Assembly (NCBI RefSeq): GCF_056746865.1
Contig: NZ_JBWKMP010000003.1
Source: a plasmid
DNA length: 64,000 nucleotides
Direction: 5' to 3' (one strand)
The translations under genes and the position numbers were made by a program. Under the pieces are notes generated by a model that saw only the letters and a list, made by a program, of their open reading frames with translations, ran no database searches and was not told where the DNA came from. Within the stretch, counting starts at the first letter, position 1. Each line of letters starts with the position of its first letter. This document shows positions 3,819 to 44,693 of this stretch, piece after piece.

Positions 3819-5740
3819 TAAAGAAACCTATTCGAATAAATATCCAGTCCACTTTTGCAGATACGCTCACTGGATATACGCCTAATCGTTGGGTGGCGGA
3901 AGATATCACCGAGGATGATTTACTTATCGAGCCTGCGACGCTGGAAGATATCGAGCTGGCCTATATGGGCAACGAAATTTTGGTAACTACCAATGAGGCA
4001 ATGTTCGAAGCTTTAACCACAACAAAATTGCGGTTAGCGCAAACAATGCGAGCATTTGTCCGGGCGCTTAATCGCGGCCTGAATGGCACTGACATTGCTG
4101 CGGGTACGGATGAGGCAGGTGAATATGAAGACGGACGTAATAGTATCGGTGGGGCAATCATTGGGCGCGTGCGCCGGGTTGCTAATATCCCTGTTGTAAC
4201 AGCACAAATACCTCTAACCGATGGACAAACGACAAGCATAATTTTCCATTCTCCAACCGCAGACGGCACAAGAATTAAAGGGGATGACGAGCTGGTTGCG
4301 TTTCAGTTTCTTCTTAACAAAAGAAACGTTACGCATGTTGTTGCGCCAATCGGTGGGCGTGATGTATCTCTGAGCCAGGTGTGTCAGGCGCTTTCTAACC
4401 TCATTGAGCGTAACAGTGCAAAATTCAAAAAAGCAAAGGAGCGCCAGGACAAAATGAAGGCTGATATTGAGGGGTATCTCAATGAAGCCGACAAGCTGGC
4501 AGAAGAACGTTCTGTGCTGATTGAGCAGGTTGAAGACGCACAGCGGGGGCTGGCAGAGAAACGCTCAACACTCAATGATATGCAGAATAAATTAGACGCA
4601 CAAAAAGCCCTTAACGGGGAATTGCAGGCTAAGCGCGATAATTTATTGTCAGCTAAGAGCCAAGGAACTAAAGAGCGTGCCTTCAATGATCAACTGCGAC
4701 ACATAAAACATAATCTTGCTACAGAAGGCCAAACAACGCTGGATAATGGTGCTGTAGTTAAGTATGTCACGTCAGGCAGTGATAGCTTTGTCACGATTGA
4801 GGCACCAGAAGGCAATTTCAGTATTGATGTCAGTGCTGTTAAAGGTGGGAGTTCAGCGGACGCTGCAACCAAATTACTTAAAGCCTATCGTGAACATAAT
4901 GCTGATCAATACAAAGTGGATGTGTTGCCGGGCCAGCCTGAGCCAACTGATCAGCCGCAGCCTGAACAGGAGCCACAACCAGCATCACATCCTGATCCCC
5001 TGGAGGTTGGTAAATATCGCTATGCGCTACAATCTCGCCCGGCGGGTGTTGGTGCGGTTCCTGAAGGAAATAAAGCTGTACTTGACCGTCCTGATCAGGC
5101 TGATCCGTATTACGAATATGCTCGTCACGGAATCATTACGTATGACCGCAAACTGACAGACGAAGAAGTCAGTCAGTACGAATTACGCTATCTGCCTGAT
5201 GACGATGAACTGAGAGGGATGGCGAACGAGCTGGTTGCGTCCAGCATGGTAAAACATATTGATGGCTATGTAGATCTGTTTGGAAGTGACCTGAAAACAT
5301 TCAAGGCGCAAGTTAAAATTCTTTTCCGCAAAGCGTTCCCGAACGTGGCATATCCACTTGGTGATGGGGAGAACCTTTTCATTATGGACGTGTATAACGC
5401 CCTTCAAAATCATTCAAGCGAAGTAAAAACAGATCCTGTAGTTGAGCCAGAATCGCAACCTGCACCAGCACCAGAACAGGAGCCGGAGCCAGAAGAAGCG
5501 GGTGAATCAGCAAGCGAAGCTGACCAGGAAGCAGATAAAGCGCTTGAGTACCTGAAATCCGTTCCGGAGCAGTTCACATCCCGCGATCTGACGGTCATAA
5601 GTGCTGAACTTGATCATGTGCAGGAAGCTGCAAACGCTCTTATCAGTGCTGGTCGATATGACGAGAACGAAGCAACTGTAGGTGCAGCCGTTGACTACCT
5701 GATCAATATTCTGGCTGAAATTCAGCAGGGAGGTGCTTAA
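3815..5740 (+). CDS. DarA-like candidate (large head-associated protein with coiled-coil and Pro/Glu-rich linkers)
   Basis: 641 aa, close to my recollection of the size of P1 DarA; operon context lyd-like, this gene, small gene; two PEPxxQP-type linkers. Assignment is from size and position, not alignment. Confidence 0.35.
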   Translation: MIKKPIRINIQSTFADTLTGYTPNRWVAEDITEDDLLIEPATLEDIELAYMGNEILVTTNEAMFEALTTTKLRLAQTMRAFVRALNRGLNGTDIAAGTDEAGEYEDGRNSIGGAIIGRVRRVANIPVVTAQIPLTDGQTTSIIFHSPTADGTRIKGDDELVAFQFLLNKRNVTHVVAPIGGRDVSLSQVCQALSNLIERNSAKFKKAKERQDKMKADIEGYLNEADKLAEERSVLIEQVEDAQRGLAEKRSTLNDMQNKLDAQKALNGELQAKRDNLLSAKSQGTKERAFNDQLRHIKHNLATEGQTTLDNGAVVKYVTSGSDSFVTIEAPEGNFSIDVSAVKGGSSADAATKLLKAYREHNADQYKVDVLPGQPEPTDQPQPEQEPQPASHPDPLEVGKYRYALQSRPAGVGAVPEGNKAVLDRPDQADPYYEYARHGIITYDRKLTDEEVSQYELRYLPDDDELRGMANELVASSMVKHIDGYVDLFGSDLKTFKAQVKILFRKAFPNVAYPLGDGENLFIMDVYNALQNHSSEVKTDPVVEPESQPAPAPEQEPEPEEAGESASEADQEADKALEYLKSVPEQFTSRDLTVISAELDHVQEAANALISAGRYDENEATVGAAVDYLINILAEIQQGGA

Positions 5741-28487: not shown

Positions 28488-28880
28488 ATGGAGCAAATCA
28501 GTAGCGCCGAAATAGCGGATATCATGATCAGGGCTAACTGCTATCTGACGGTCACCGAAATCACCAGCCGTGCAAAAGCACAATATCCTCACCTTCATGT
28601 GTCGCGCGTAAACGTAAATAACATCATACGTTTTTTTGTTCGTTCCAGTCGTGCCATTTGCGAAATAGACGACCGCGTATACCCCCGGAAATATTGGTTA
28701 CATGGCCTGAATGGATACCAGTTCAAGGTGCGCGGGCGCACTCCTGAATTCGGTCGGCTGTTGGTGAAAAACACCAACCGAAAGATAGAAGCTCAATTAC
28801 GAAAGGAGCAGCGTCAGTTGGTGGCGATGACTAACCAGCTATGGAACGCCGCTGTGAAAAAACGTGAGGCTTCCCTATGA
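28488..28880 (+). CDS. Hypothetical regulator-like protein in the Lpa position (immediately upstream of pacA-like)
   Basis: 130 aa, RBS ggggg-ataa-ATG, overlaps the pacA-like start; function inferred from P1 synteny only. Confidence 0.4.
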   Translation: MEQISSAEIADIMIRANCYLTVTEITSRAKAQYPHLHVSRVNVNNIIRFFVRSSRAICEIDDRVYPRKYWLHGLNGYQFKVRGRTPEFGRLLVKNTNRKIEAQLRKEQRQLVAMTNQLWNAAVKKREASL

Positions 28881-30241
28881 CGTTAATTAACTGGGAAGCG
28901 CATCGAGCTAAGTTCCTGGAGTTAAGAGAAGAAACCGGGATCACCATAAAAGAATATTGCGAGCAGCATGACCTCAGCTTTAACACCGCCAGAAAGCATC
29001 TCAATATGAAAAAAAATGAGGTTAAGGCGAAAGCTAAGGCTACCGGGAAAAGTACAAAACAGCGCGCAAAAAGCAGCGCCACCGGCTCAAAAAAAGAGCA
29101 AAAAAAGGCTAATAAAAGCACAGAATTTACAAAAACTGACAAATCGTTGGCTGGTGGACGGTTCCGCGCCATGCCGCAAAAACAAAATGCGGATCACAAA
29201 GAAAAGCCAAGTAATAACAACAAGATACACAAGGATGTGAAGGGATCATTTTGTGATGAAATGGGAGAAATGATCCCTAAAAGCAGCGATAAAGCCCAAC
29301 GAAACAAGGGATCATTGCAAATGATCCCTGATTCATCAGCTCAAAGCACCACTTTGCCTGCCACCAACGTCGCCCGTGAGATGATGAAGAACGGCGCGAC
29401 TGAACATTTACGACTTGCGATACAGATGGCGCAGGAACGAGCAATTCAGTATCAGGCTATCGTTGACCAGGAAGCGGAGCGACTACAGGAAGAGATTGAC
29501 GCCCTCGGTGATACACAGCCAGAGGGGATGCACCCAGGGCAGCGTCTTCTCGGACTGATCAGCGATGCGGCCTACTACATGAATGACTTTATCACCAGGC
29601 TGGCAGCCATCTATCAGAACGAGCAGAAGCTACGCCAGGGGGATGAAAAACTTGCGCAGGGCGCGCGTCAGCAGGCATTCAGGGAGGCTGAGGCCAGAGA
29701 AAAACTGGCGATTGCCCGCCTACAAGCCGAGCAGCGTGGCAAGGAGATTGAGTATCGCATTGGCGCTGACGCACGCGCCGCCAGGGTTATCGCCGCCGCT
29801 ATACGTATGCGTGAGCGCGAGGAGCTGGATGATATAGGTGTTGCTGAATATATCGAGCGGCAGGGCGTCAGTGTCCCGGCTATCCTGGCGGCACGAGCGG
29901 CAAAAGCGATCTCACTTCTGGAGCCTCCGGTTTCTGACGTTAACGATGTTGATGATGAGCAACTGGATAAAGAGGCGAAGCAGTTTGCCGAGCAACAAGC
30001 TGGACTCCCACAATGGCTTGCACAACGCCGGGCTGAAGTAGCGAAAATCGTTGATAGGCTTGGGATGGGGGATTACGACCGGAACGGAGAACGTAAAGCC
30101 GGTGAATTTGAGGCCAATGATGAAGACCTGAATATAGACCCTTCCGCGACGGCTGATATCTACGGTGATTATGACGCGGGGGATACCGGTTTTGATGCTG
30201 TAGATGACGAGATTGCGATAGACCAGCCGGAGGATGACTAA
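28877..30241 (+). CDS. PacA-like terminase small subunit (contains pac-like hexamer cluster)
   Basis: 454 aa immediately upstream of and coupled (ATGA) to the large terminase; HTH-like N-terminus, acidic C-terminal tail; internal cluster of Dam-site hexamers like the P1 pac site inside pacA. Confidence 0.55.
   Translation: MTLINWEAHRAKFLELREETGITIKEYCEQHDLSFNTARKHLNMKKNEVKAKAKATGKSTKQRAKSSATGSKKEQKKANKSTEFTKTDKSLAGGRFRAMPQKQNADHKEKPSNNNKIHKDVKGSFCDEMGEMIPKSSDKAQRNKGSLQMIPDSSAQSTTLPATNVAREMMKNGATEHLRLAIQMAQERAIQYQAIVDQEAERLQEEIDALGDTQPEGMHPGQRLLGLISDAAYYMNDFITRLAAIYQNEQKLRQGDEKLAQGARQQAFREAEAREKLAIARLQAEQRGKEIEYRIGADARAARVIAAAIRMREREELDDIGVAEYIERQGVSVPAILAARAAKAISLLEPPVSDVNDVDDEQLDKEAKQFAEQQAGLPQWLAQRRAEVAKIVDRLGMGDYDRNGERKAGEFEANDEDLNIDPSATADIYGDYDAGDTGFDAVDDEIAIDQPEDD
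29191..29327. promoter_or_regulatory. pac-like site: five GATC-containing hexamers (GGATCA x3, TGATCC x2) including two inverted copies of AATGATCCCT
   Basis: Hexamers at 29191, 29243, 29271, 29309 and 29322; aagggatcatt and aaatgatccct each occur twice. Confidence 0.5.
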
Positions 30242-31749
30242 TGGCTGGTGGTCGTAAGATTAAGTGCGTCACCAGTGATCCACGTTGGCGCGATATGGTT
30301 ATCAGGTATCGATACAACTTTACCCAGGCGGTTGTCGATATTTTTGGGATGTTCCCCTCCCACCAGCAGCAGCAGATCATTCAGTCAGTGCAGGAGACGG
30401 GGAGCAGGACGACCGTTACGTCCGGACACGGAACGGGTAAGTCGTCCCTTACCGCGATGTTGCTACTAATTTTTATGATCCTGTTCCCCGACGCCCGCGT
30501 CATTATTGTTGCGAACAAAATAGGCCAGGTAAAAACAGGCGTATTCAAATACGTGAAACAGTTTTGGGCGAATGCTGTTAAGCGCCACGGCTGGTTACAG
30601 ACCTATTTTGTCCTGTCTGACACCATGTTTTATGAGCGTTCCCGTAAAGGGATATGGGAAGTGCTCTGTAAAGGTTATCGACTCGGTAACGAAGAGGCAC
30701 TGGCGGGGGAGCACGCGGAGCATTTACTGCTAATCCTTGATGAAGCATCGGGCATATCCGATAAGGCGATTAACGTCATGACGGGGGCGTTAACGCAGAA
30801 AGATAACCGTATGCTCATGCTTTCCCAGCCTACGCGTCCAAGCGGTTACTTTTATGAATCTCACCATTCAAGGGCAAAGGCAGAAGGCAATCCGGAAGGT
30901 GTCTGGACGGCAATAGTCCTTAACTCTGAAGAATCACCATTCGTTGAACCGAGCTTTATTCGTGAGAAATTGCTGGAGTACGGCGGCAGGGATTCGCTGG
31001 AGTACATGGTTAAGGTGCTGGGCCAGTTCCCGCGTGCAATTAACGGGTATTTGCTTGGTCGTGATGAGTGCGACCGCGCCGCACGGCGTAAAGTGTTGCT
31101 GGAGAAAGATTGGGGCTGGGTAGCGACCGCTGACGTCGGTAATGGTCGCGATAAATCGGTGCTCAATATATGCAAAGTATCCGGTTATCGTGAGAAACGA
31201 CGCGTTGTGAACTTTAAGATACTGGAGATGCCAGGCACTATGGACCCGTTGGCTTTTGCCGACTTTATCTATAACGAATGCACTCCTGATAAATACCCGA
31301 ACATCACCATTGCTGTGGATGCTGATGGCTTTGGTTCAGATACGTGTGCGCAGCTTGTCCGCCGTGGTGCTAATCCCGTTCGCATCCGTTGGGGTAAGCC
31401 TATGTTTGCGCTAAGAGACAGAGAACGCTTTGTCAATCAGCGTGCTTACGCCAATATTATGGCAGGGGATGCCATTAAATCCGGGCGTATGCGTATCGAT
31501 AGTGACCCCAAAACCGCAGATCAGGCATCAAAAATCCCGTATATGCTTAACGAAGAAGGGAAGGTAGCGATGATGCGCAAGGAGCACATGCGGCAGAAGT
31601 TAAACATCAAGTCACCGGACAGATGGGATACCTACTGCTTCACTATGCTGGTGGATTACGTGCCTGCTAATGAAGACATTGGCGCAGAACTCGCAACATT
31701 CCGCGATCAGGTGTTGGCAGAAGTGGATATTCCTGATATTGACATTTAA
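30241..31749 (+). CDS. PacB-like terminase large subunit
   Basis: 502 aa; P-loop GHGTGKSS, Walker B LLLILDEASG, C-terminal nuclease-like region with VDADGFG; coupled to the upstream small-subunit gene. Confidence 0.75.
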   Translation: MAGGRKIKCVTSDPRWRDMVIRYRYNFTQAVVDIFGMFPSHQQQQIIQSVQETGSRTTVTSGHGTGKSSLTAMLLLIFMILFPDARVIIVANKIGQVKTGVFKYVKQFWANAVKRHGWLQTYFVLSDTMFYERSRKGIWEVLCKGYRLGNEEALAGEHAEHLLLILDEASGISDKAINVMTGALTQKDNRMLMLSQPTRPSGYFYESHHSRAKAEGNPEGVWTAIVLNSEESPFVEPSFIREKLLEYGGRDSLEYMVKVLGQFPRAINGYLLGRDECDRAARRKVLLEKDWGWVATADVGNGRDKSVLNICKVSGYREKRRVVNFKILEMPGTMDPLAFADFIYNECTPDKYPNITIAVDADGFGSDTCAQLVRRGANPVRIRWGKPMFALRDRERFVNQRAYANIMAGDAIKSGRMRIDSDPKTADQASKIPYMLNEEGKVAMMRKEHMRQKLNIKSPDRWDTYCFTMLVDYVPANEDIGAELATFRDQVLAEVDIPDIDI

Positions 31750-31786: not shown

Positions 31787-32824
31787 TTACCAGAGTTTTG
31801 CCGCGTACATCGTTTGTGTGAATGTGTACCCATAGCGTTCTTCAACGCTTTTACCGTATTTTTTCCTGGCTTCAGTAAGGCGGATGCCTGTCAGGTCATC
31901 GCCGGAGGCAATCATAACTTCCAGTAGTTCCAGGTCCATTTTATCCAGCCTTGCCATTGCATCTTTAGCCTCTTGAATTTTCCGGCTAACGATCTGGTGT
32001 ATGGCTGGATCGGCTTCGGCCAGCATTTTATCTGATTTGTTTTTTAAACTCTGATTGCGGATATCAATGTTTCTCAGGATATATGACTTCACGACGTAGC
32101 TTGGCTGCTGCTTTTCCAGATCACGAACCCGATAAAGGTCAAATTCGCCGAGAAGTCCGCACGGAAGCGGTTTAATGCCAGTGTAAATGGTAAGGGTGCG
32201 GCGCTCACCAACGTTGTTAACAACGGGAATCTCTGTGTTTGCTTTTTTTGCAAAGATCAGCGCACCGTGCGTACCCACTCTGAAGCGTGAAAGTCCATTG
32301 TTGCCCTCAATATTGGTGGTAATCACCACATCGGTATAACCTTCTTTTCTTGCGCGGTATACCTCGCCCTCACGTTCAGCGGCGAAGAATCTGCGTTCTT
32401 CTTCAAGCGCACCGACAACCTGTGAAAATATCCTGTTTTTCATGCTTTTCTTTATAGTTTTATCGTATTTTTTCAGCAGGTCTTCGCGCGTAAATGTTCT
32501 CGTTGTGGTTGCGCTTTGCATAACGATGTGCGTACTCTGATTAGTATCCTCAACAATGAATGGGATCGGTAAATAAACCGACTCAACAATGTTTGAGGCT
32601 TTGTCATCATCCTTGCGACACAGATCAACAAAGGCTTTCCATTCGGCTATGCATTTTTCAGCTTCTTCTAATACAGCCGGATCATGTGTTAATGCAACAT
32701 GGCGAAATTCCTCGCCAACATAACTGGTATCATGGAAAACAGAGTTTGCGACCACCAGCTCTTTCCACCTTTCAGCGGTTTGCAGGAACCGTTTGTACTC
32801 ATTCTCGATCGACTTCTTACTCAT
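31787..32824 (-). CDS. Hypothetical 345-aa protein; candidate immunity repressor (P1 c1 position: convergent with pacB, next to lox/cre)
   Basis: Best start is the internal ATG (MSKKSIENEY) with RBS aggaa; an operator motif TGTTAGAAAA lies immediately upstream on the coding strand; no recognisable domain by eye. Confidence 0.45.
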   Translation of the reverse strand: MSKKSIENEYKRFLQTAERWKELVVANSVFHDTSYVGEEFRHVALTHDPAVLEEAEKCIAEWKAFVDLCRKDDDKASNIVESVYLPIPFIVEDTNQSTHIVMQSATTTRTFTREDLLKKYDKTIKKSMKNRIFSQVVGALEEERRFFAAEREGEVYRARKEGYTDVVITTNIEGNNGLSRFRVGTHGALIFAKKANTEIPVVNNVGERRTLTIYTGIKPLPCGLLGEFDLYRVRDLEKQQPSYVVKSYILRNIDIRNQSLKNKSDKMLAEADPAIHQIVSRKIQEAKDAMARLDKMDLELLEVMIASGDDLTGIRLTEARKKYGKSVEERYGYTFTQTMYAAKLW

Positions 32825-33019: not shown

Positions 33020-33053
33020 CTAACTTTAAATAATTGGCATTATTTAAAGTTAG
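33020..33053. promoter_or_regulatory. lox-like recombination site (13-8-13): CTAACTTTAAATA ATTGGCAT TATTTAAAGTTAG
   Basis: Perfect 13-bp inverted arms around an asymmetric 8-bp spacer; same architecture as loxP and 9/13 arm identity to it; 150 bp upstream of the Cre-like gene. Confidence 0.7.
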
Positions 33054-33204: not shown

Positions 33205-34233
33205 ATGGGTGAACTAGTTATCTCCGGCGGTTCTGGTGGTTTTCTGCGCGATATTGGCACCGAATACCAGGAAGCTGCAAAAAACTTTATGCAGTTCATG
33301 AACGACCAGGGAGCTTATGCTCCAAATACGCTTCGAGATCTCCGTCTGGTGTTTCATTCCTGGGCGCGGTGGTGTAATTCGCGCCAGCGCCCCTGGTTCC
33401 CGATTACGCCGGAAATGGCCCGCGAGTATCTTCTCCAGTTGCATGAGGCCGATCTGGCCTCGACCACCATTGATAAGCACTATGCCATGCTTAACATGCT
33501 GCTTTCGCAATGTGGCCTCCCGCCGCTGTCGGACGATAAAAGTGTGTCTCTGGCCATGCGGCGCATCCGGCGCGAAGCGGCAACGGAAAAAGGCGAGCGA
33601 ACAGGCCAGGCTATACCGTTGCGGTGGGATGATCTGAAATTGCTCGACGTGTTGCTGTCCCGTTCCGAGCGGCTGGTGGACCTGCGCAATCGGGCGTTTC
33701 TCTTCGTGGCATACAATACCCTGATGCGTATGTCAGAAATCTCGCGCATCCGCGTCGGAGATCTGGACCAAACAGGTGACACTGTAACGCTGCATATTTC
33801 ACACACGAAGACCATCACGACCGCCGCCGGACTTGATAAGGTGCTTTCTCGTTACACTACCGCCGTACTGAACGACTGGCTGGAGGTGTCCGGACTTCGA
33901 GAACATCCGGACGCGGTGCTATTCCCGCCAATACACCGCAGTAATAAGGCCAGAATCACGACAACGCCCCTTACTGCACCTGCAATGGAGAAAATATTCA
34001 GCGATGCCTGGGGGTTGCTGAACAAACGAGATGCCACGCCGAACAAAGGAAGATACCGGACGTGGACAGGCCATAGTGCGCGTGTTGGTGCGGCAATTGA
34101 TATGGCTGAGAAACAGGTGTCAATGGTCGAGATCATGCAGGAAGGTACATGGAAAAAGCCCGAAACACTTATGCGATATTTGCGCCGTAGCGGGGCATCC
34201 GTTGGTGCAAATAGTCGCCTGATGGACTCATAA
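33205..34233 (+). CDS. cre: Cre-like tyrosine site-specific recombinase
   Basis: Colinear similarity to P1 Cre as I recall it (SWARWCNSRQRPWFP..., NMLLSQCGLPPLSDDKSVSLAMRRIRRE, WTGHSARVGAAIDMA, C-terminal Tyr in LMRYLRR); ORF-track start is non-ATG. Confidence 0.9.
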   Translation: MGELVISGGSGGFLRDIGTEYQEAAKNFMQFMNDQGAYAPNTLRDLRLVFHSWARWCNSRQRPWFPITPEMAREYLLQLHEADLASTTIDKHYAMLNMLLSQCGLPPLSDDKSVSLAMRRIRREAATEKGERTGQAIPLRWDDLKLLDVLLSRSERLVDLRNRAFLFVAYNTLMRMSEISRIRVGDLDQTGDTVTLHISHTKTITTAAGLDKVLSRYTTAVLNDWLEVSGLREHPDAVLFPPIHRSNKARITTTPLTAPAMEKIFSDAWGLLNKRDATPNKGRYRTWTGHSARVGAAIDMAEKQVSMVEIMQEGTWKKPETLMRYLRRSGASVGANSRLMDS

Positions 34234-39979: not shown

Positions 39980-40615
39980 TCAGATATCGGCCTTATTCGG
40001 AATTTTATCAGCCACCAGCGGCAATAAAGCCTTCGCCATTTCATGAACCAACATGGCATCAATGACGCCTAGCGTATGGCCCGGTTTAATGTTTAATGCC
40101 GCCTCAAGATGACTCCTTTCCAGGCCGCTTTTCTCGGCTTGTTTATGACGATCTGGTGTAATAACTTCGCCCAAAACGCGGCTAATTTTTTCTCGTAATT
40201 GCTGGGTGCCAGCACACTTGATCGCTGTATCGTGGAGACGGTTAACCAGTTCGCGATAAACATGCGGCTTAATGCGGATACGTTCACCGGTGACGCCCTT
40301 TCCTGGCGCTGGCACCGAACTATCCGGATAGTTGCCAGCCTCGTAAGCTACCCGCAGCCAGTGCATGAATGTTTCAGTGGACACACAACCACAGTCCACA
40401 TCGATTTTTCCGCGTTGCTGTTCCAGCCACTGCTCAAAATTCAATCTACACGTATTACTTTCATGTTGCTCTTTTTGTCTCAAGGCCAGCATCTGCTGGG
40501 CTATTTCCAATACTTCATCTGCCGTATATCCAGCACCGTGACCATACATTTCGATACGGGAAATAATCTCTGATATACGCTCTTCAGTGATTCTGGTCAT
40601 TTCTTTTTGCGCCAT
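39980..40615 (-). CDS. Hypothetical protein sharing a ~45-aa segment with the C-terminus of the DUF4406 fusion
   Basis: KPHVYRELVNRLHDTAIKCAGTQQLREKISRVL versus APHIYRELVNALRDIAAVYHGTEQLRERLAHTI in 52539-53150. Confidence 0.5.
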   Translation of the reverse strand: MAQKEMTRITEERISEIISRIEMYGHGAGYTADEVLEIAQQMLALRQKEQHESNTCRLNFEQWLEQQRGKIDVDCGCVSTETFMHWLRVAYEAGNYPDSSVPAPGKGVTGERIRIKPHVYRELVNRLHDTAIKCAGTQQLREKISRVLGEVITPDRHKQAEKSGLERSHLEAALNIKPGHTLGVIDAMLVHEMAKALLPLVADKIPNKADI

Positions 40616-40968
40616 TTCTTTTCACATTCCTTAGTCCATTTTTCAATGTTCATTTTGGCAATATCAGTCATTCCATCACCTAAGAAATACTTTTTCCGGT
40701 ATGTCTTGCACTTAAACCACACTACAACAGCCACCAGCCAGAAAATAAAAGGCCATACAGCAATACCAACGACAGCCGCGATAAAGCCCAATAGCCATAA
40801 ATGAAGCTCTCCAACTTCTGTTTCCGGCAATATTCTTAAAGAATTAAACAGCAGGCTGAACGAATGGTCGTATGCATTGGCGGTATAAGACATGCAATCC
40901 ATATAATTAAAGTCATAGCCTGCGGCTGCCGCCCATAATGGGCGGTCAAGAAAATGTTTTAGTGTCAT
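40597..40968 (-). CDS. Hypothetical membrane protein
   Basis: Two or three hydrophobic helices, basic C-terminus. Confidence 0.45.
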   Translation of the reverse strand: MTLKHFLDRPLWAAAAGYDFNYMDCMSYTANAYDHSFSLLFNSLRILPETEVGELHLWLLGFIAAVVGIAVWPFIFWLVAVVVWFKCKTYRKKYFLGDGMTDIAKMNIEKWTKECEKKWRKKK

Positions 40969-40977
40969 TATATAAAT

Positions 40978-41271
40978 TTAAGGTTCAGACCAGTTATCTT
41001 CAATAGCAATGCTTAATCTTTGTAGCCATTCTGCTAATTTCAGCATTGCTTCTCTTTCGCTTAAACCACGAGGAAAATCATCAAGCGAAATTGTTGGCTT
41101 GAATCCCCCGCAATTATCCATTTCAACTGTCAGATTTTGTTCCAGCACGGTATTTCTTACGCGGCTATTGTGCCGAAGCAAATATACTGAGCGTGATTTA
41201 TTGGTTTTGTGGTCTAGCTTATATTCGGTAAGTATCATCTGGCTTTTGCCATGATTATTACCTCTCCACAT
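40978..41271 (-). CDS. Hypothetical protein (start trimmed to the internal ATG with RBS)
   Basis: ATG (MWRGNN) preceded by tgaggtaag; the longer 129-aa ORF-track version overlaps an upstream small ORF. Confidence 0.4.
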   Translation of the reverse strand: MWRGNNHGKSQMILTEYKLDHKTNKSRSVYLLRHNSRVRNTVLEQNLTVEMDNCGGFKPTISLDDFPRGLSEREAMLKLAEWLQRLSIAIEDNWSEP

Positions 41272-41278
41272 ACTTACC

Positions 41279-41401
41279 TCACTTAATAAAACAACTCCAT
41301 GCGTAGTTGATGATTTTTTCCCACGTAATATAAATCTGCACTCCGGCAGTAAAACCAAAGCCAACAATTGCTGAAAAAATCAAAACATTTACTTTTGACA
41401 T
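41279..41401 (-). CDS. Small hydrophobic peptide (40 aa)
   Basis: MSKVNVLIFSAIVGFGFTAGVQIYITWEKIINYAWSCFIK; below the ORF-track cutoff; stop lies next to the start of 40978-41271. Confidence 0.3.
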   Translation of the reverse strand: MSKVNVLIFSAIVGFGFTAGVQIYITWEKIINYAWSCFIK

Positions 41402-41449
41402 TATAAATTTTCTCTCGGTGTCGTAGGTGATAGCACCATAATTGATAAT

Positions 41450-41683
41450 TTAGTGAGTTAGCAGTTCCATTTTTTTGATGATTTCCGCATGAGCATCATC
41501 GTTATCAACACTTAGCTCGTTTAATGCTTCTCGCACTACATCAACTTCTTCAGGCTGAAAGAAGTCGTCGCGGTAATCACCAAATAGAACCGAAACCAGC
41601 CTGCCACCAGCAACATCAAGATTGGCGCTAACAGGTGGCTCTTTGCCATCCTCAAATTCGACTACAAAAGTTAATTTTCCCAT
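41450..41683 (-). CDS. Hypothetical acidic protein (77 aa)
   Basis: ORF with conserved operon orientation. Confidence 0.45.
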   Translation of the reverse strand: MGKLTFVVEFEDGKEPPVSANLDVAGGRLVSVLFGDYRDDFFQPEEVDVVREALNELSVDNDDAHAEIIKKMELLTH

Positions 41684-41759
41684 CGTTACCCCCAGAAGAT
41701 AAAAATAGCGGCAATCGCCATAGCTACGCCTACAATCGCAAATGCTTCAGGCCAGCTTA

Positions 41760-42017
41760 TTACCTCACCTCCAGTCTCCATACCGCCTGACCAATCCGGC
41801 TGGCATGGGTATCTTTGGATACTGTTCCATCTTTAGCCAGCTCCATAAGAATTTTGCGCAAATCTGCCGAACGCCATTCTTCATCAGGAAATTCCTTCTC
41901 CATTGCCAACCGCAGATTCCAGGTTGCTATCGTGAATGGATATTCCCCGCCGAGAGCTTTCTCTTGCAGGGCAGCACGGGAACGTATCACCTGCAAAACC
42001 TTCTCTTTTACATCCAT
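41760..42017 (-). CDS. Hypothetical protein (start set at the ATG overlapping the upstream stop)
   Basis: Translational coupling with 42017-42715. Confidence 0.4.
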   Translation of the reverse strand: MDVKEKVLQVIRSRAALQEKALGGEYPFTIATWNLRLAMEKEFPDEEWRSADLRKILMELAKDGTVSKDTHASRIGQAVWRLEVR

Positions 42018-42715
42018 CATTTTGCCTCCTGCGGCGGTTCTGGTAGCGGCATCCAGTGTGATGGTATCCACGACGCACCAGGTATTACCCACCCATCATT
42101 AGCGTCAGGATGCCCCGGGATGTAAGTCGCCCATTTCATTCGCCAGTCACCTTTCCTGTCAAACTCCCTGGCAACAAGAACGGCTGTTTTGGTATCCGGC
42201 ATTCGCTCACTACAGCTTATCCAACTATCCGGAATTACCGGATAGTTGCCCGACAGCTTGTTCAACTTGTAAGTCTGGCTTACAGGTTTGGCACCATGAA
42301 GCATGGCGTCGCTCCGCTCTATGCCATCCAGCGCGATTCGCAGTGCCTGAATTGTGGTAGAGCTATCGTTTGGGGCTATTCCATATCGCTCGAATACAGC
42401 TAAATGGTTGCGCATAATCTCAGGCGTAAGCTCTTTGTAAGCATAAGCAAGAGACTCTGATGCATTATCCGGCACAACCGACGCAAGCGCGGCAGCATAA
42501 ACAGGAATAACGTCCACTTGCTCTTTATTGCTTTCATCCGTTAAAGCCCAGAATAATTTCCCGGCCGGATGTTTGAAAATATAAGCAATTGGTTCTGCTT
42601 CCAGCGATGCCAGAGCAATTTCATACGACCGTCGCTCAATATTGTCTCGCACGTCCAGGCTGCTGATACGCTCTTTGATTTCTTTAATCAGTTCTTTGTC
42701 GGTTAAAGTGGTCAT
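42017..42715 (-). CDS. DUF551-like protein
   Basis: C-terminal ...DGWVIPGASWIPSHWMPLPEPP resembles the DUF551 C-terminal motif common in enterobacterial prophages. Confidence 0.5.
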   Translation of the reverse strand: MTTLTDKELIKEIKERISSLDVRDNIERRSYEIALASLEAEPIAYIFKHPAGKLFWALTDESNKEQVDVIPVYAAALASVVPDNASESLAYAYKELTPEIMRNHLAVFERYGIAPNDSSTTIQALRIALDGIERSDAMLHGAKPVSQTYKLNKLSGNYPVIPDSWISCSERMPDTKTAVLVAREFDRKGDWRMKWATYIPGHPDANDGWVIPGASWIPSHWMPLPEPPQEAK

Positions 42716-42725
42716 AAATTATGCC

Positions 42726-42962
42726 TCAGTTGTATCCGATTGGATTAACCGCAACAAGAACGCCATCCGCGAACAAATCTTTAATGAGGTGTTCGCTCGG
42801 CTCGCCTTTTTCGTACTCTTCAATAAGGTAAGTGTCTCCATCTTCATTGATATAAACAGGAAGGATGGAGCCGTTGATAAAGTAGGTTCCGTTGTTATCG
42901 AGGATTTTTGCCTCGGCGATTTGTTTTTTGGTAAAACGCTCTTCTTTTGTCAAAGTTGCCAT
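42726..42962 (-). CDS. Hypothetical protein (78 aa)
   Basis: Internal ATG start MATLTKEERF. Confidence 0.4.
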   Translation of the reverse strand: MATLTKEERFTKKQIAEAKILDNNGTYFINGSILPVYINEDGDTYLIEEYEKGEPSEHLIKDLFADGVLVAVNPIGYN

Positions 42963-42963
42963 A

Positions 42964-43182
42964 TCAGCTTTCCTTATATGGGTTGATTTTGTTGTGCAAT
43001 GTGTTGAACGACGCCCATACCACGTCGTTATACAATTCAATAACTGGCTCAATTATTTTCCCGATTCCCCATACCAGAATTAACGGGGATATCGGTATCA
43101 TCAACACGATAAACAGAATGAGAAACAGAAATTCTGTTATTCGGCTTCTTTGCGGATATTCTTTTCTGAATAATGTTGGCAC
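42964..43182 (-). CDS. Small membrane protein (GTG start)
   Basis: RBS aaggagag 4 nt upstream of GTG; hydrophobic core FLFLILFIVLMIPISPLILVWGIG. Confidence 0.35.
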   Translation of the reverse strand: MPTLFRKEYPQRSRITEFLFLILFIVLMIPISPLILVWGIGKIIEPVIELYNDVVWASFNTLHNKINPYKES

Positions 43183-43183
43183 A

Positions 43184-43405
43184 TCACTCTCCTTTGCCCG
43201 CAGCTTTCGCCTGCTCTTTAGCAAGTCGCTCCGCTTCTCTGAAATCCCAATCCACTCGATGTGCGATATCAATTGCAGAACGCACGGTTCGTTCAATTAG
43301 CGTATCCAGGTTATCAATTGTCATTGCCATATCTGGATTTCGAGATAAAATCTCCGCCCTCTGAATCTGCCAGTTGTTACAGGTTTCAAGTAATGAGTTA
43401 GCCAT
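43184..43405 (-). CDS. Hypothetical protein (73 aa)
   Basis: Internal ATG start MANSLLETC. Confidence 0.35.
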   Translation of the reverse strand: MANSLLETCNNWQIQRAEILSRNPDMAMTIDNLDTLIERTVRSAIDIAHRVDWDFREAERLAKEQAKAAGKGE

Positions 43406-43406
43406 A

Positions 43407-43595
43407 TCACTCTCCTTTAGTGCGCAAGTGGTTTTTCCAGCGGTTTTGCGCCGCGCTGGGCTTTTTGCAAAAACCACAATCCATCATCCCGTAATATTTC
43501 ATCAACCCCATCCGTCGGTTGCTGAGTCTCACCCACTGCCAGACGCCAGGAGCGTTTCTACGAACTAACAGAATCTTTGCTTTACGGTTTTTCAT
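43407..43595 (-). CDS. Small basic protein, copy 1 of a tandem pair (MKNRKAK...)
   Basis: Shares N-terminus MKNRKAK and the DNA block ttacggtttttcat with the upstream copy. Confidence 0.3.
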   Translation of the reverse strand: MKNRKAKILLVRRNAPGVWQWVRLSNRRMGLMKYYGMMDCGFCKKPSAAQNRWKNHLRTKGE

Positions 43596-43768
43596 CTTAC
43601 AGCGTACCCTTTCTTCCGCCTGTTCTGTGACGCAGTAGGCTTACGCTTTGCGGCAAAAGCCACCTGACCAAATGGATGGAGTACCGCTATCTTATGGTTG
43701 CTAATAACCAGCTCCACCACACGCACAGGTCGCTGTAAAAAAAGTCGTTTTGCCTTACGGTTTTTCAT
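43592..43768 (-). CDS. Small basic protein, copy 2 of a tandem pair (MKNRKAK...)
   Basis: 58 aa, stop overlaps the start of copy 1 (ATGA). Confidence 0.3.
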   Translation of the reverse strand: MKNRKAKRLFLQRPVRVVELVISNHKIAVLHPFGQVAFAAKRKPTASQNRRKKGYAVR

Positions 43769-43940
43769 CGCTTTGCTCTCCTGCGTCTCTTTGCTGCTCG
43801 TCGTGCCGCTGCAATACCGGTATGGCGGCGCTTTGGTGCCGGGATGATGTTGTCAGCCATCAGGACATACGGCTTTGCAATTAGCGCAGAAGCCCAAAAA
43901 CGAGTCGGGTACGGTAACAAGCCGATACATGCCACACGCA

Positions 43941-44693
43941 TTACTCACCTCCTTTGATGCGAATGCCTGCGGCGCGGATTGCAGCGATGACTTCAGAAAC
44001 TTTGTATGCCATTACCGTTTGGTAATCATCGTGAAAATCTGTTCGATGAAGCATGCTGCTACGTTCCGGGAGCGATATTTCCCGAGCATCCAGTTCCTTA
44101 ACGCGTTCCTCCAGTTCGTAGACCCTGCATTGTTCTCTATCATCAATCAGATATACCCCAAGACATTCGCTTTCTACCCAACCGCCAAAATCATGATCGT
44201 AACGCTCACATGAAAACTCACCGTCACCGTCCTTTGTTGGAATGGTGTAACTATCTAATGGGCCACCATATGTCGGCACATTTCCCAATGTTGGATGCTC
44301 AATCCACATGAAAAATGCACGTCCGGTTATTGGGCAAATATCTGGCCGCCATTGGTTACGAACAGCCTTGGTTTCGGATAATTCTTCAGCGTGTTGTTTT
44401 ACTTCCTCAAGCTCAACTCTCAGCTTCCCTACCGTTAGCGCAATATCCTCGTTCTCCTGATCGCGGCGTTTTATGTATTGCTGGTTTCTTTCCCGTTCAT
44501 CCAGCAGCGCCAGCACGGTTTCTGGTCCGGTCAGAAATTTGAAGGCGTTGAGCGCATCAATATCCACACCGTAATCTTTAAGTTCCTGTTCACTTAACAA
44601 ATCATCATCAGCTGGCAACATTAACAGGCGTTCCATTGCTGGAATTGCACGTTCCGCCGCCTCACGCAGTGCCTGGTAATTAATTTCGCTCAC
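43941..44693 (-). CDS. ead/Ea22-like family protein
   Basis: Contains [37 protein letters not shown] and C-terminal [10 protein letters not shown], shared with 50855-51529. Confidence 0.55.
   Translation of the reverse strand: MSEINYQALREAAERAIPAMERLLMLPADDDLLSEQELKDYGVDIDALNAFKFLTGPETVLALLDERERNQQYIKRRDQENEDIALTVGKLRVELEEVKQHAEELSETKAVRNQWRPDICPITGRAFFMWIEHPTLGNVPTYGGPLDSYTIPTKDGDGEFSCERYDHDFGGWVESECLGVYLIDDREQCRVYELEERVKELDAREISLPERSSMLHRTDFHDDYQTVMAYKVSEVIAAIRAAGIRIKGGE

What the first reader, a model, noticed from the sequence alone, without database searches (positions are those of the whole stretch)
29191..29327. pac-like cluster of Dam-site hexamers inside the pacA-like gene, with a variant hexamer
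Five GATC-containing hexamers (GGATCA/TGATCC) lie within ~140 bp, including two inverted copies of AATGATCCCT. P1 pac is a cluster of TGATCA/G hexamers inside pacA whose cleavage is controlled by Dam methylation. The different hexamer here suggests altered terminase specificity.
Basis: partly seen in the sequence, partly recalled or inferred. Interest (0 to 1): 0.5.

Follow-up and report, generated by a model that had tools for sequence, protein, structure and literature searches.

The report
Predicted packaging site of D6-like phage-plasmid
A tight group of five Dam-methylation sites inside the small-terminase gene of a D6-like plasmid prophage is very probably the site where the phage starts cutting and packaging its DNA, a relative of the phage P1 pac site built from a different, longer recognition word.

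Summary
Five GATC sites lie at 29192-29326 inside a PacA-like gene (28877-30241), and all five sit in GGATCA/TGATCC hexamers. GATC density alone is not significant (P=0.18). The true repeat is an 11-mer, AGGGATCATTT, present four times as two inverted pairs and nowhere else in 64 kb.

The window is a D6-like phage-plasmid with the gene order lpa-pacA-pacB-c1-rox-dre. It carries an exact D6 rox site, and Dre is 94% identical to that of D6.

Across three D6-clade lineages the motif positions stay 87-98% identical. The rest of the PacA linker is only 52-58% identical. The same GATC core is read in three codon phases, so the constraint acts on the DNA.

In all 20 PacA lineages clustered at 80% identity, the same linker carries a dense GATC-hexamer array. 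Almost all lineages, including P1, use TGATCA. Only the D6 clade, an Enterobacter group and one metagenomic lineage use GGGATCATT, and these also differ in the predicted recognition helix (TARK against TARR).

D6 and a near-identical plasmid encode an orthologue of the Dam domain of P1 Dmt.

Verdict: this is a predicted pac site, a new variant of the P1 type. It lacks the upstream hexamer array. Cleavage and Dam control were not tested.

The parts
28488..28880 (+). Lpa-like late-promoter activator gene; its end overlaps the pacA start
   Evidence: phrog_1704 'Lpa-like transcriptional activator', E 2.8e-56. Same position as lpa in D6.
28877..30241 (+). pacA-like gene (small terminase / pacase A subunit, 454 aa) that contains the site
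   Evidence: phrog_1711, E 2e-167. 74% aa identity to D6 PacA. 20% identity to P1 PacA over the full length, E 5e-8. No Pfam, NCBIfam or PDB match.
28877..29020 (+). Coding region of the predicted N-terminal helix-turn-helix of PacA; helix 3 is FNTARKHL, residues 35-42
   Evidence: AlphaFold2 on alignment A4: helices 6-19, 24-31 and 35-42, pLDDT 86-89 in this part. The best structural matches are all HTH domains, but none is significant.
29191..29196 (+). Site 1: GGATCA (cGGATCAc), a weaker copy of the motif
   Evidence: GGATCA(C/T) is kept in all 25 distinct D6-clade sequences. It is absent at the aligned position in the Enterobacter lineage.
29215..29227 (+). TAACAACAAGATA, an IHF-consensus-like element between sites 1 and 2 (weak candidate)
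   Evidence: 7 of 9 matches to WATCAANNNNTTR, at the same position in D6 and HX138, and similar to the annotated P1 IHF site AAACAAAGAGTTA. Matches of this quality are common in shuffles (mean 2.05), so it is not supported statistically.
29241..29251 (+). Site 2: AGGGATCATTT
   Evidence: Exact 11-mer. GATCAT is kept although the encoded residues change from KGSF to RRSL.
29268..29278 (-). Site 3: AGGGATCATTT on the minus strand (AAATGATCCCT on plus)
   Evidence: Exact 11-mer. AAATGATCCC is the longest invariant run in the first 624 nt of pacA across 8 D6-clade and Enterobacter sequences.
29307..29317 (+). Site 4: AGGGATCATTG, the most variable copy among relatives
   Evidence: It reads GGGATCTTC in D6 and AGAGATCAT in the HX138 lineage.
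29319..29329 (-). Site 5: AGGGATCATTT on the minus strand; with site 4 it forms a 10+10 palindrome with 3 nt between the arms (AGGGATCATT GCA AATGATCCCT)
   Evidence: AATGATCCC is invariant in the alignment.
28938..28943 (+). Possible sixth GGATCA (gGGATCAc) inside the HTH coding region (Gly-Ile-Thr); unresolved
   Evidence: Present in all D6-clade sequences at gene nt 63. It can be explained by the conserved G-I-T codons, and it is absent from the Enterobacter lineage.
30241..31749 (+). pacB-like gene (large terminase, 502 aa)
   Evidence: phrog_2 'terminase large subunit', E 4e-41. The N-terminal 260 aa are 59-83% identical to PacB of P1 and other lineages.
31787..32824 (-). C1-like repressor gene
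   Evidence: 80% aa identity to D6 C1.
33021..33052 (+). rox recombination site, about 3.8 kb downstream of the cluster
   Evidence: Exact match to the D6 rox sequence TAACTTTAAATAATTGGCATTATTTAAAGTTA.
33205..34233 (+). Dre-like tyrosine recombinase gene
   Evidence: 94% aa identity to D6 Dre.

Best explanation
The cluster is the packaging initiation (pac) site of a D6-like, P1-family phage-plasmid. It is embedded in the disordered-linker coding part of pacA.

Inferred mechanism, by homology with P1:
1. The N-terminal helix-turn-helix of PacA binds the repeated elements. Here these are about 10-bp asymmetric words, GGGATCATTT, in both orientations, each with a Dam site at its core.
2. With PacB, and probably a host DNA-bending protein, the complex cuts concatemeric DNA in or beside the array.
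3. Headful packaging then runs through pacB and c1 towards rox. This places rox in the terminal redundancy so that Dre can circularise the injected DNA.
4. The invariant GATC cores, together with a phage-encoded Dam orthologue in D6 and in the closest plasmid, suggest that cutting is gated by adenine methylation as in P1.
5. Because the word is GGGATCATT and not the TGATCA/G of P1, the D6-type pacase and the P1 pacase are expected not to use each other's sites.

Shown here: sequence anatomy, homology, position, DNA-level conservation, and the family-wide pattern. Inferred: binding, cleavage, packaging direction, Dam control and specificity.
For: 1. **Homologous genes and order.** lpa-pacA-pacB-c1-rox-dre matches P1 lpa-pacA-pacB-c1-lox-cre. 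The cluster lies 3.8 kb from rox; the P1 cleavage site lies 4.0 kb from lox.

2. **Same place in the gene.** The P1 hexamers and mapped cleavage sites lie at pacA nt 195-351. Here the sites are at nt 316-450, after a lysine-rich insertion.

3. **DNA-level constraint.**
- Motif positions are 87-98% identical between three D6-clade lineages, against 52-58% for the rest of the linker and 75-79% for the C-terminal part.
- All 7 third-codon positions inside GATC cores are invariant, against 31% of linker third positions.
- Hexamer columns are invariant in 22 of 30 cases against 66 of 281 elsewhere in the linker (Fisher 8e-8).
- The core is read in three phases (DH, GS, MIP), and amino acids change around a retained GATCAT.

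4. **Family-wide pattern.**
- In 20 of 20 PacA lineages at or below 80% identity, GATC runs at 8-26 per kb in the linker against 1-9 per kb in the rest of pacA.
- Twelve further pacA genes from other genomes, 10 of them distinct in sequence, were listed but not measured for density. All carry GATC hexamers in the first 560 nt, TGATCA arrays in 11 of the 12.

5. **The word is lineage-specific.** GGGATCATT occurs only in the D6 clade, the Enterobacter group and L077. These have TARK or TGRK in predicted helix 3, where TGATCA lineages have TARR or TVRR.

6. **Uniqueness.** GGGATCATT occurs four times in 64 kb, all of them here.

7. **Dam.** A Dam-family methylase (TIGR00571, 232 bits) is encoded in the near-identical plasmid. 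It is 80% identical to the D6 methylase and 71% to the Dam part of P1 Dmt.

8. **P1 facts used.** A 161-bp pac inside pacA, seven TGATCA/G hexamers, Dam, IHF: PMC10028697 and the NC_005856 annotation.
Against: - No packaging ends, cleavage, binding or methylation data exist for this element or, in what I could read, for D6.
- The layout departs from P1. There is no upstream 12-bp-periodic hexamer array, although the Enterobacter relative has one. The five sites are arranged 1+2+2 with gaps of only 48 and 32 bp, so the cut position cannot be placed by analogy.
- In my recollection of the P1 literature, hexamers on both sides are needed for efficient cutting. The papers held here were not checked for this.
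- GATC density alone is not significant (P=0.18).
- An IHF site is not supported statistically.
- Two IMG/VR relatives each lack one site through a single T-to-C change.
- The helix/word covariation rests on one or two evolutionary events.
- The Dam gene is not inside the window.
Confidence: 0.75

Rival explanations
1. The cluster is a real conserved DNA element but not the pac site. It could be a binding array for another Dam-sensitive or dimeric regulator, a SeqA-type sequestration site, or a hairpin or cruciform acting on pacA/pacB expression or as an antisense terminator.
For: - The inverted pairs give strong folding potential: -13.4 kcal/mol for sites 4 and 5 (z -4.8), and z about -4 for the 99-nt region in three lineages.
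- The simple scan calls a terminator-like hairpin on the minus strand at 29329-29307.
- Palindromic 10+10 sites are typical of dimeric regulators.
Against: - There are no compensatory changes. Site 4 varies (GGGATCATT, GGGATCTTC, AGAGATCAT) while its partner, site 5, is invariant, so the words are conserved and the pairing is not.
- The T-rich tail is not conserved in the HX138 lineage.
- The element sits exactly where P1 pac sits, and the same kind of array is found in every PacA lineage whatever the surrounding genes.
- No promoter-like site lies in the region.
Confidence: 0.1
2. The cluster is only a remnant or an auxiliary half of a pac site. Having lost the upstream hexamer array, D6-type phages recognise or cut mainly at another sequence, and these five sites play only a regulatory or accessory role.
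For: - The D6 clade lacks the 12-bp-periodic left array that the Enterobacter lineage (nt 157, 169, 181) and nearly all other lineages have.
- Other conserved islands exist in the linker, such as AATTTACAnAAAyTGACAA at 29123-29142.
- Single sites can be lost in natural variants.
Against: - D6 is a viable phage with the same five-site layout.
- The five sites are the most conserved nucleotides of the whole 5' half of pacA.
- The motif occurs nowhere else in 64 kb.
Confidence: 0.1
3. The cluster is chance or a by-product of coding: a duplicated peptide unit (KGS[FL]...MIP) in a low-complexity linker that happens to contain GATC.
For: - GATC clustering alone is not significant (P=0.18).
- The protein shows KGSF..EMIPK and KGSL.QMIPD, which could be a peptide duplication.
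- Another GATC cluster in the window (4903-5106) is explained by xDQ/xDP codons.
Against: - The two halves of the supposed peptide unit are exact reverse complements of each other over 11 nt. Protein selection does not produce that.
- Amino acids change (G to R, F to L, L to S) while GATCAT stays.
- Third-codon positions in the cores are invariant.
- The Pro codon's third base, directly after the motif, varies freely.
- At the 9-mer level the chance probability is about 1e-8.
Confidence: 0.03

Closest known systems
Bacteriophage P1 pac site (161/162 bp inside pacA; seven TGATCA/G hexamers; IHF site; Dam-regulated cleavage by PacA-PacB)
   Same: - It lies inside the homologous gene, in the linker after the N-terminal HTH.
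- It is made of several repeated words, each with a GATC core.
- It is followed by pacB, c1 and a site-specific recombination site about 4 kb away.
- A phage-encoded Dam orthologue is present in close relatives.
   Different: - None of the five hexamers is TGATCA/G.
- The word is longer and asymmetric (GGGATCATTT) and occurs in both orientations as two inverted pairs.
- There are five sites, not seven, laid out 1+2+2 and not 4+3.
- No roughly 90-bp central gap separates two arrays, and no upstream periodic array is present.
- An IHF site is not demonstrable.
- PacA is only 20% identical.
Escherichia phage D6 (MF356679 / AY753669) and D6-like plasmid prophages
   Same: - Same gene order.
- All five GATC sites are at identical positions in pacA (nt 316, 368, 396, 434, 447).
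- The rox site is identical, Dre is 94% and C1 80% identical.
   Different: - The window belongs to a distinct sub-lineage: pacA is 79.6% identical in nucleotides and 74% in amino acids, and the linker outside the motifs is only 56% identical.
- Its copies match the consensus better. D6 has AGATCA at site 2 and GGATCT at site 4.
- Neither D6 record annotates a pac feature.
- I could not read the 2018 D6 genome paper, so I cannot say whether the site was noted there.
pacA arrays of other P1-supercluster phage-plasmids (Pantoea, Xenorhabdus, Serratia, Citrobacter, Leclercia, Rosenbergiella lineages)
   Same: They carry a dense GATC-hexamer array in the same PacA linker, usually in two parts.
   Different: They use TGATCA, often 3-7 copies at an exact 12-bp period read as Asp-His or Asp-Gln codons. 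Their recognition helix is NTARR, against NTARK here.

Membership tests
P1-type pac site | Located inside pacA, in the 5' third, downstream of the N-terminal DNA-binding domain | tested here: met
   The sites are at pacA nt 316-450. The P1 hexamers and cleavage sites are at nt 195-351. The HTH is predicted at residues 24-42.
P1-type pac site | Cluster of several hexamers, each containing a Dam site (GATC) | tested here: met
   Five GATC hexamers lie within 137 bp. All cores are conserved in the D6 clade.
P1-type pac site | Hexamer sequence TGATCA or TGATCG | tested here: not met
   None of the five matches. They are GGATCA three times and TGATCC twice, within the 11-mer AGGGATCATTT.
P1-type pac site | Two hexamer arrays (4 and 3) flanking a central region of about 90 bp that holds the cleavage sites | tested here: not met
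   The layout is 1+2+2 with gaps of 48, 24, 34 and 9 bp between GATC cores. The upstream array is absent here, although it is present in the Enterobacter relative.
P1-type pac site | IHF binding site next to the cleavage region | tested here: inconclusive
   TAACAACAAGATA (29215-29227) matches 7 of 9 positions and is conserved in position. Shuffled sequence gives 2.05 such matches on average.
P1-type pac site | Cleaved by PacA plus PacB; the cut end starts a unidirectional headful series | not testable with these tools
   This needs virion DNA end mapping or in vitro cleavage.
P1-type pac site | Cleavage depends on adenine methylation of the GATC sites | not testable with these tools
   Only indirect evidence is available. 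The GATC cores are invariant. A Dam-family gene is present in D6 and in the closest plasmid, but not in the window.
P1-type pac site | Adjacent pacB, and a recombination site with its recombinase a few kb downstream | tested here: met
   pacB is at 30241-31749, rox at 33021-33052 and dre at 33205-34233.
D6-like phage-plasmid | Close homologues of D6 Lpa, PacA, PacB, C1 and Dre, plus a rox site, carried on a plasmid of about 90 kb | tested here: met
   79.6% nucleotide identity over lpa-pacB. C1 is 80% and Dre 94% identical, and rox is exact. pacA is 99.9% identical to that of the 94-kb E. coli plasmid NZ_CP085065.1. All 95 E. coli copies are on plasmids.

The most novel reading that the evidence does not exclude
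PacA and its pac words have co-evolved into at least two non-cross-reacting packaging specificities within the P1 supercluster. One pairs TGATCA with an ...NTARR... recognition helix. The other pairs GGGATCATTT with ...NTARK.... This would let P1-type and D6-type phage-plasmids share a cell without packaging each other's DNA. The D6 branch has also rebuilt the site into a compact, one-sided array of inverted pairs that no longer needs the two-array, IHF-bent geometry of P1.
Probability: 0.35. Interest if true: 0.55.

Novelty: new variant of a known kind. Interest (0 to 1): 0.4.

Why it matters
P1 pac is the textbook case of a methylation-gated packaging site. It is also the working part of P1 phagemid, PAC-cloning and transduction tools.

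A natural second specificity would offer:
- a ready-made orthogonal packaging signal for phagemid delivery systems, with a defined 10-bp word and a candidate recognition-helix change;
- a direct test of how a small terminase reads DNA;
- a basis for predicting which chromosomal or plasmid sequences D6-like elements can mobilise by generalised transduction.

D6-like elements occur in about 2% of complete E. coli genomes (95 of 5426) and in Salmonella and Shigella.

The family-wide view also shows that a cis-acting site can imprint repeated Asp-His, Gly-Ser or Met-Ile-Pro codons on the protein that recognises it.

Tried and rejected
- **GATC-only scan statistic.** Not significant (P=0.18), so the case rests on the longer word and on conservation.
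- **IHF site by consensus.** Matches are no better than in shuffled sequence.
- **RNA or DNA hairpin as the selected feature.** Folding potential is strong, but there is no covariation.
- **Promoter and terminator scan.** No promoter was found. One minus-strand terminator-like call is simply the palindrome of sites 4 and 5.
- **Degenerate extra copies of the 11-mer that might form a hidden left array.** None lies near the cluster.
- **Family and structure searches for PacA.** Pfam, NCBIfam and PDB sequence searches gave no hit. A Foldseek search with the N-terminal model returned only non-significant HTH matches.
- **Literature.**
  - The D6 genome paper (Gilcrease and Casjens 2018, PMC5800970) and the P1 genome paper (PMC523184) are not held.
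  - Five full-text searches found no paper that describes a D6-type pac site. I read passages in five of the papers they returned.
- **tblastn of PacA against phage records.** Only D6 was found.
- **A Dam gene inside the window.** None is present.
- **A contig that starts exactly after the GATC of site 1 (L046).** I treated it as an anecdote. It may come from a GATC-cutting library or an assembly break, and I did not use it as evidence.

Full report
**What is in the sequence.**
GATC occurs at 29192, 29244, 29272, 29310 and 29323. With one flanking base on each side the hexamers are GGATCA, GGATCA, TGATCC, GGATCA and TGATCC. That is one hexamer in two orientations. All five lie in ORF 28877-30241 (+, 454 aa), at gene nucleotides 316-450.

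Four of the five belong to a longer word. AGGGATCATTT occurs at 29241(+), 29268(-), 29307(+, one mismatch) and 29319(-). These form two inverted pairs with 16 and 3 nt between the arms.

**Is it more than chance?**

| Level tested | Result |
|---|---|
| GATC alone | Tightest group of five in the window (131 bp), but 18% of random placements give one that tight somewhere in 64 kb |
| 9-mer GGGATCATT | 4 copies against 0.62 expected; 0 of 100 shuffles reach 4; all within 87 bp, about 1e-8 |

The stronger argument is the longer word.

**What the element is.**
- The closest phage is Escherichia phage D6: 79.6% nucleotide identity over lpa-pacA-pacB.
- pacA is 99.9% identical to that of a 94-kb E. 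coli plasmid, NZ_CP085065.1. Large parts of the window match that plasmid in mosaic fashion.
- The ORF is a PacA homologue: phrog_1711 at E 2e-167, 74% identical to D6 PacA, and 20% to P1 PacA over the full length at E 5e-8.
- It is followed by PacB (phrog_2), a C1-like repressor (80% to D6), an exact D6 rox site at 33021-33052 and a Dre recombinase (94%).
- This is the P1 order lpa-pacA-pacB-c1-lox-cre. The cluster lies 3.8 kb from rox. The mapped P1 cleavage site lies 4.0 kb from lox.
- 95 of 5426 complete E. coli genomes carry this stretch, always once and always on a plasmid. Sixteen are of the window type and 79 of the D6 type.

**Comparison with P1 pac.**
The P1 record places the pac cleavage sites at pacA nt 275-285, next to an IHF site. 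TGATCA hexamers lie at nt 195-232 and TGATCG/TGATCA hexamers at nt 325-351. PMC10028697 summarises the site as 161 bp inside pacA with seven TGATCA/G Dam-site hexamers (HEX4 and HEX3), an IHF site, and methylation-dependent cleavage by PacA and PacB.

The window's cluster lies in the same part of the protein, the linker after the N-terminal domain. AlphaFold2 predicts that domain as a helix-turn-helix with helices at 24-31 and 35-42. Structural matches are all HTH domains, but none is significant.

**Evidence that the DNA, not the protein, is under constraint.**
- In an alignment of eight D6-clade and Enterobacter sequences, the longest invariant runs in the first 624 nt of pacA are AAATGATCCC and AATGATCCC, which are sites 3 and 5.
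- Hexamer columns are invariant in 22 of 30 cases against 66 of 281 for other linker columns (Fisher 8e-8). The sequences are related, so this P value overstates independence.
- Between the three D6-clade lineages, the 46 motif positions are 87-98% identical. The rest of the linker is 52-58% identical and the C-terminal part 75-79%.
- All seven third-codon positions inside GATC cores are invariant in 25 distinct sequences, against 31% of linker third positions.
- The same core is read in three phases: GAT-CAC (Asp-His), G-GA-TCA (Gly-Ser) and ATG-ATC-C (Met-Ile-Pro).
- At site 2 the peptide changes from KGSF to RRSL while GATCATT stays.
- The third base of the Pro codon, directly after the motif, takes all four values.

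**The family-wide picture.**
I collected pacA genes from plasmids, from IMG/VR (80 loci found through PacB) and from species-representative genomes.

- In all 20 PacA lineages at or below 80% identity, the linker holds 8-26 GATC per kb against 1-9 per kb in the rest of the gene.
- Twelve further pacA genes from the species-representative genomes, 10 of them distinct in sequence, were listed without measuring density. All carry GATC hexamers in the first 560 nt, and 11 of the 12 have TGATCA arrays.
- Nearly all lineages use TGATCA. It is often present as 3-7 copies at an exact 12-bp period, followed after 100-160 bp by one to four more.
- GGATCA/TGATCC, with the extended consensus (A/G)GGGATCATTT, occurs only in the D6 clade, an Enterobacter group (53-55% PacA identity) and one metagenomic lineage, L077 (35%).
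- These same lineages have L(S/T)(F/Y)(N/S)T(A/G)RK in predicted helix 3, where TGATCA lineages have LN(P/A)NT(A/V)RR. The covariation is clean, but it reflects one or two evolutionary events.

**Where the D6 type departs from P1.**
- The Enterobacter relative still has an upstream array (TGATCA, GGGATCATTT, GGGATCATTC at nt 157-190) as well as the downstream group. The D6 clade, window included, has lost the upstream array.
- What remains is one weaker site and two inverted pairs within 137 bp. The gaps of 48 and 32 bp are too short to place a P1-like central cleavage region by analogy.
- An IHF-like element (TAACAACAAGATA, 29215-29227) is conserved in position and resembles the P1 site. It is no better than shuffled sequence provides.

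**Dam.**
A Dam-family methylase is encoded in the near-identical plasmid at about 91.9-92.7 kb (TIGR00571, 232 bits against a cut-off of 115). It is 80% identical to the D6 methylase and 71% to the Dam part of P1 Dmt. It is not within the window. With the invariant GATC cores, this makes P1-like methylation control plausible but unproven.

**Rivals.**
1. A structural element. The inverted pairs fold well (z about -4), and a minus-strand terminator-like call coincides with sites 4 and 5. But site 4 varies while site 5 is invariant, without compensation, so the words are conserved and the pairing is not.
2. A remnant. The loss of the left array leaves open that the main recognition or cut site lies elsewhere. 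Against this, D6 is a viable phage with the same layout, the five words are the most conserved nucleotides in the 5' half of the gene, and the word occurs nowhere else in 64 kb.
3. Coding repeat or chance. This is excluded by the exact reverse-complement relation of the two 'peptide' halves and by the synonymous-site data.

**Known or new?**
Neither D6 GenBank record annotates a pac feature. No accessible paper describes a D6-type pac site: five full-text searches found none, and I read passages in five of the papers they returned. The 2018 D6 genome paper is not held, so prior mention cannot be excluded.

I classify the finding as a new variant of the P1 pac type. It fails two defining features of P1 pac, the hexamer sequence and the 4+3 bipartite layout. 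It meets those of location, a GATC-word array and genomic context.

Confidence that this is the pac recognition region is about 0.75. It is lower for Dam gating (about 0.6). That P1 and D6-type pacases do not use each other's sites is roughly an even bet.

Noticed in passing
window 40224-44194: A stretch of 3.97 kb has no GATC at all, at 43-48% GC. The window average is one GATC per 294 bp. It lies among small minus-strand accessory ORFs that match only PHROGs of unknown function, and within a segment (about 38.9-47.1 kb) that has no match in the closest plasmid NZ_CP085065.1. This could reflect avoidance of a GATC-specific nuclease or an origin in a host without Dam.
   Followed up: partly
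window 4903-5106: This is the second-tightest GATC group: five CTGATC(A/C) within 200 bp inside a head-protein gene, three of them exactly 45 bp apart. All are read as xDQ or xDP codons in a Pro/Asp/Gln-rich stretch. It is not a tandem repeat.
   Followed up: partly
window 29123-29142: AATTTACAnAAAyTGACAA is an island of conserved nucleotides (TTACA and TGACAA invariant in 8 sequences) in the otherwise diverged, lysine-rich part of the pacA linker, upstream of site 1. It is not called as a promoter, and its function is unknown.
   Followed up: partly
L046 (IMGVR_UViG_2537562191_000021) position 1: A 23.6-kb D6-type contig from an isolate genome begins exactly at the base after the GATC of site 1 (...CGGATC|ATGAAAATAATG...). 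It could be a packaging-related end, a GATC-cutting library artefact or an assembly break.
   Followed up: no
L009 / L012 / L075 (Enterobacter plasmids), pacA nt 157-190: The Enterobacter relatives keep an upstream array (TGATCA, GGGATCATTT, GGGATCATTC at a 12-bp period) that the D6 clade has lost. They look like an intermediate between the P1-type two-array site and the compact D6-type site.
   Followed up: partly
L098 and L107 (IMG/VR D6-type contigs), pacA nt 396 and 368: Two natural variants have each lost one GATC core through a single T-to-C change (AATGACCCCC and GGAGACCATT). Either single sites are dispensable or these prophages are decaying.
   Followed up: no
L016, L079-L097, L129-L130 (Pantoea-type pacA), nt 154-240: Six or seven TGATCA hexamers at an exact 12-bp period are translated as a (x-x-D-H/Q) repeat. 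This is a striking case of a cis site imprinting a peptide repeat on the protein presumed to bind it.
   Followed up: partly
NZ_CP085065.1 about 91888-92920 (outside the window): A Dam-family methylase ORF sits in a gap of the PLSDB gene table. It is an orthologue of the D6 methylase and of the Dam part of P1 Dmt.
   Followed up: yes
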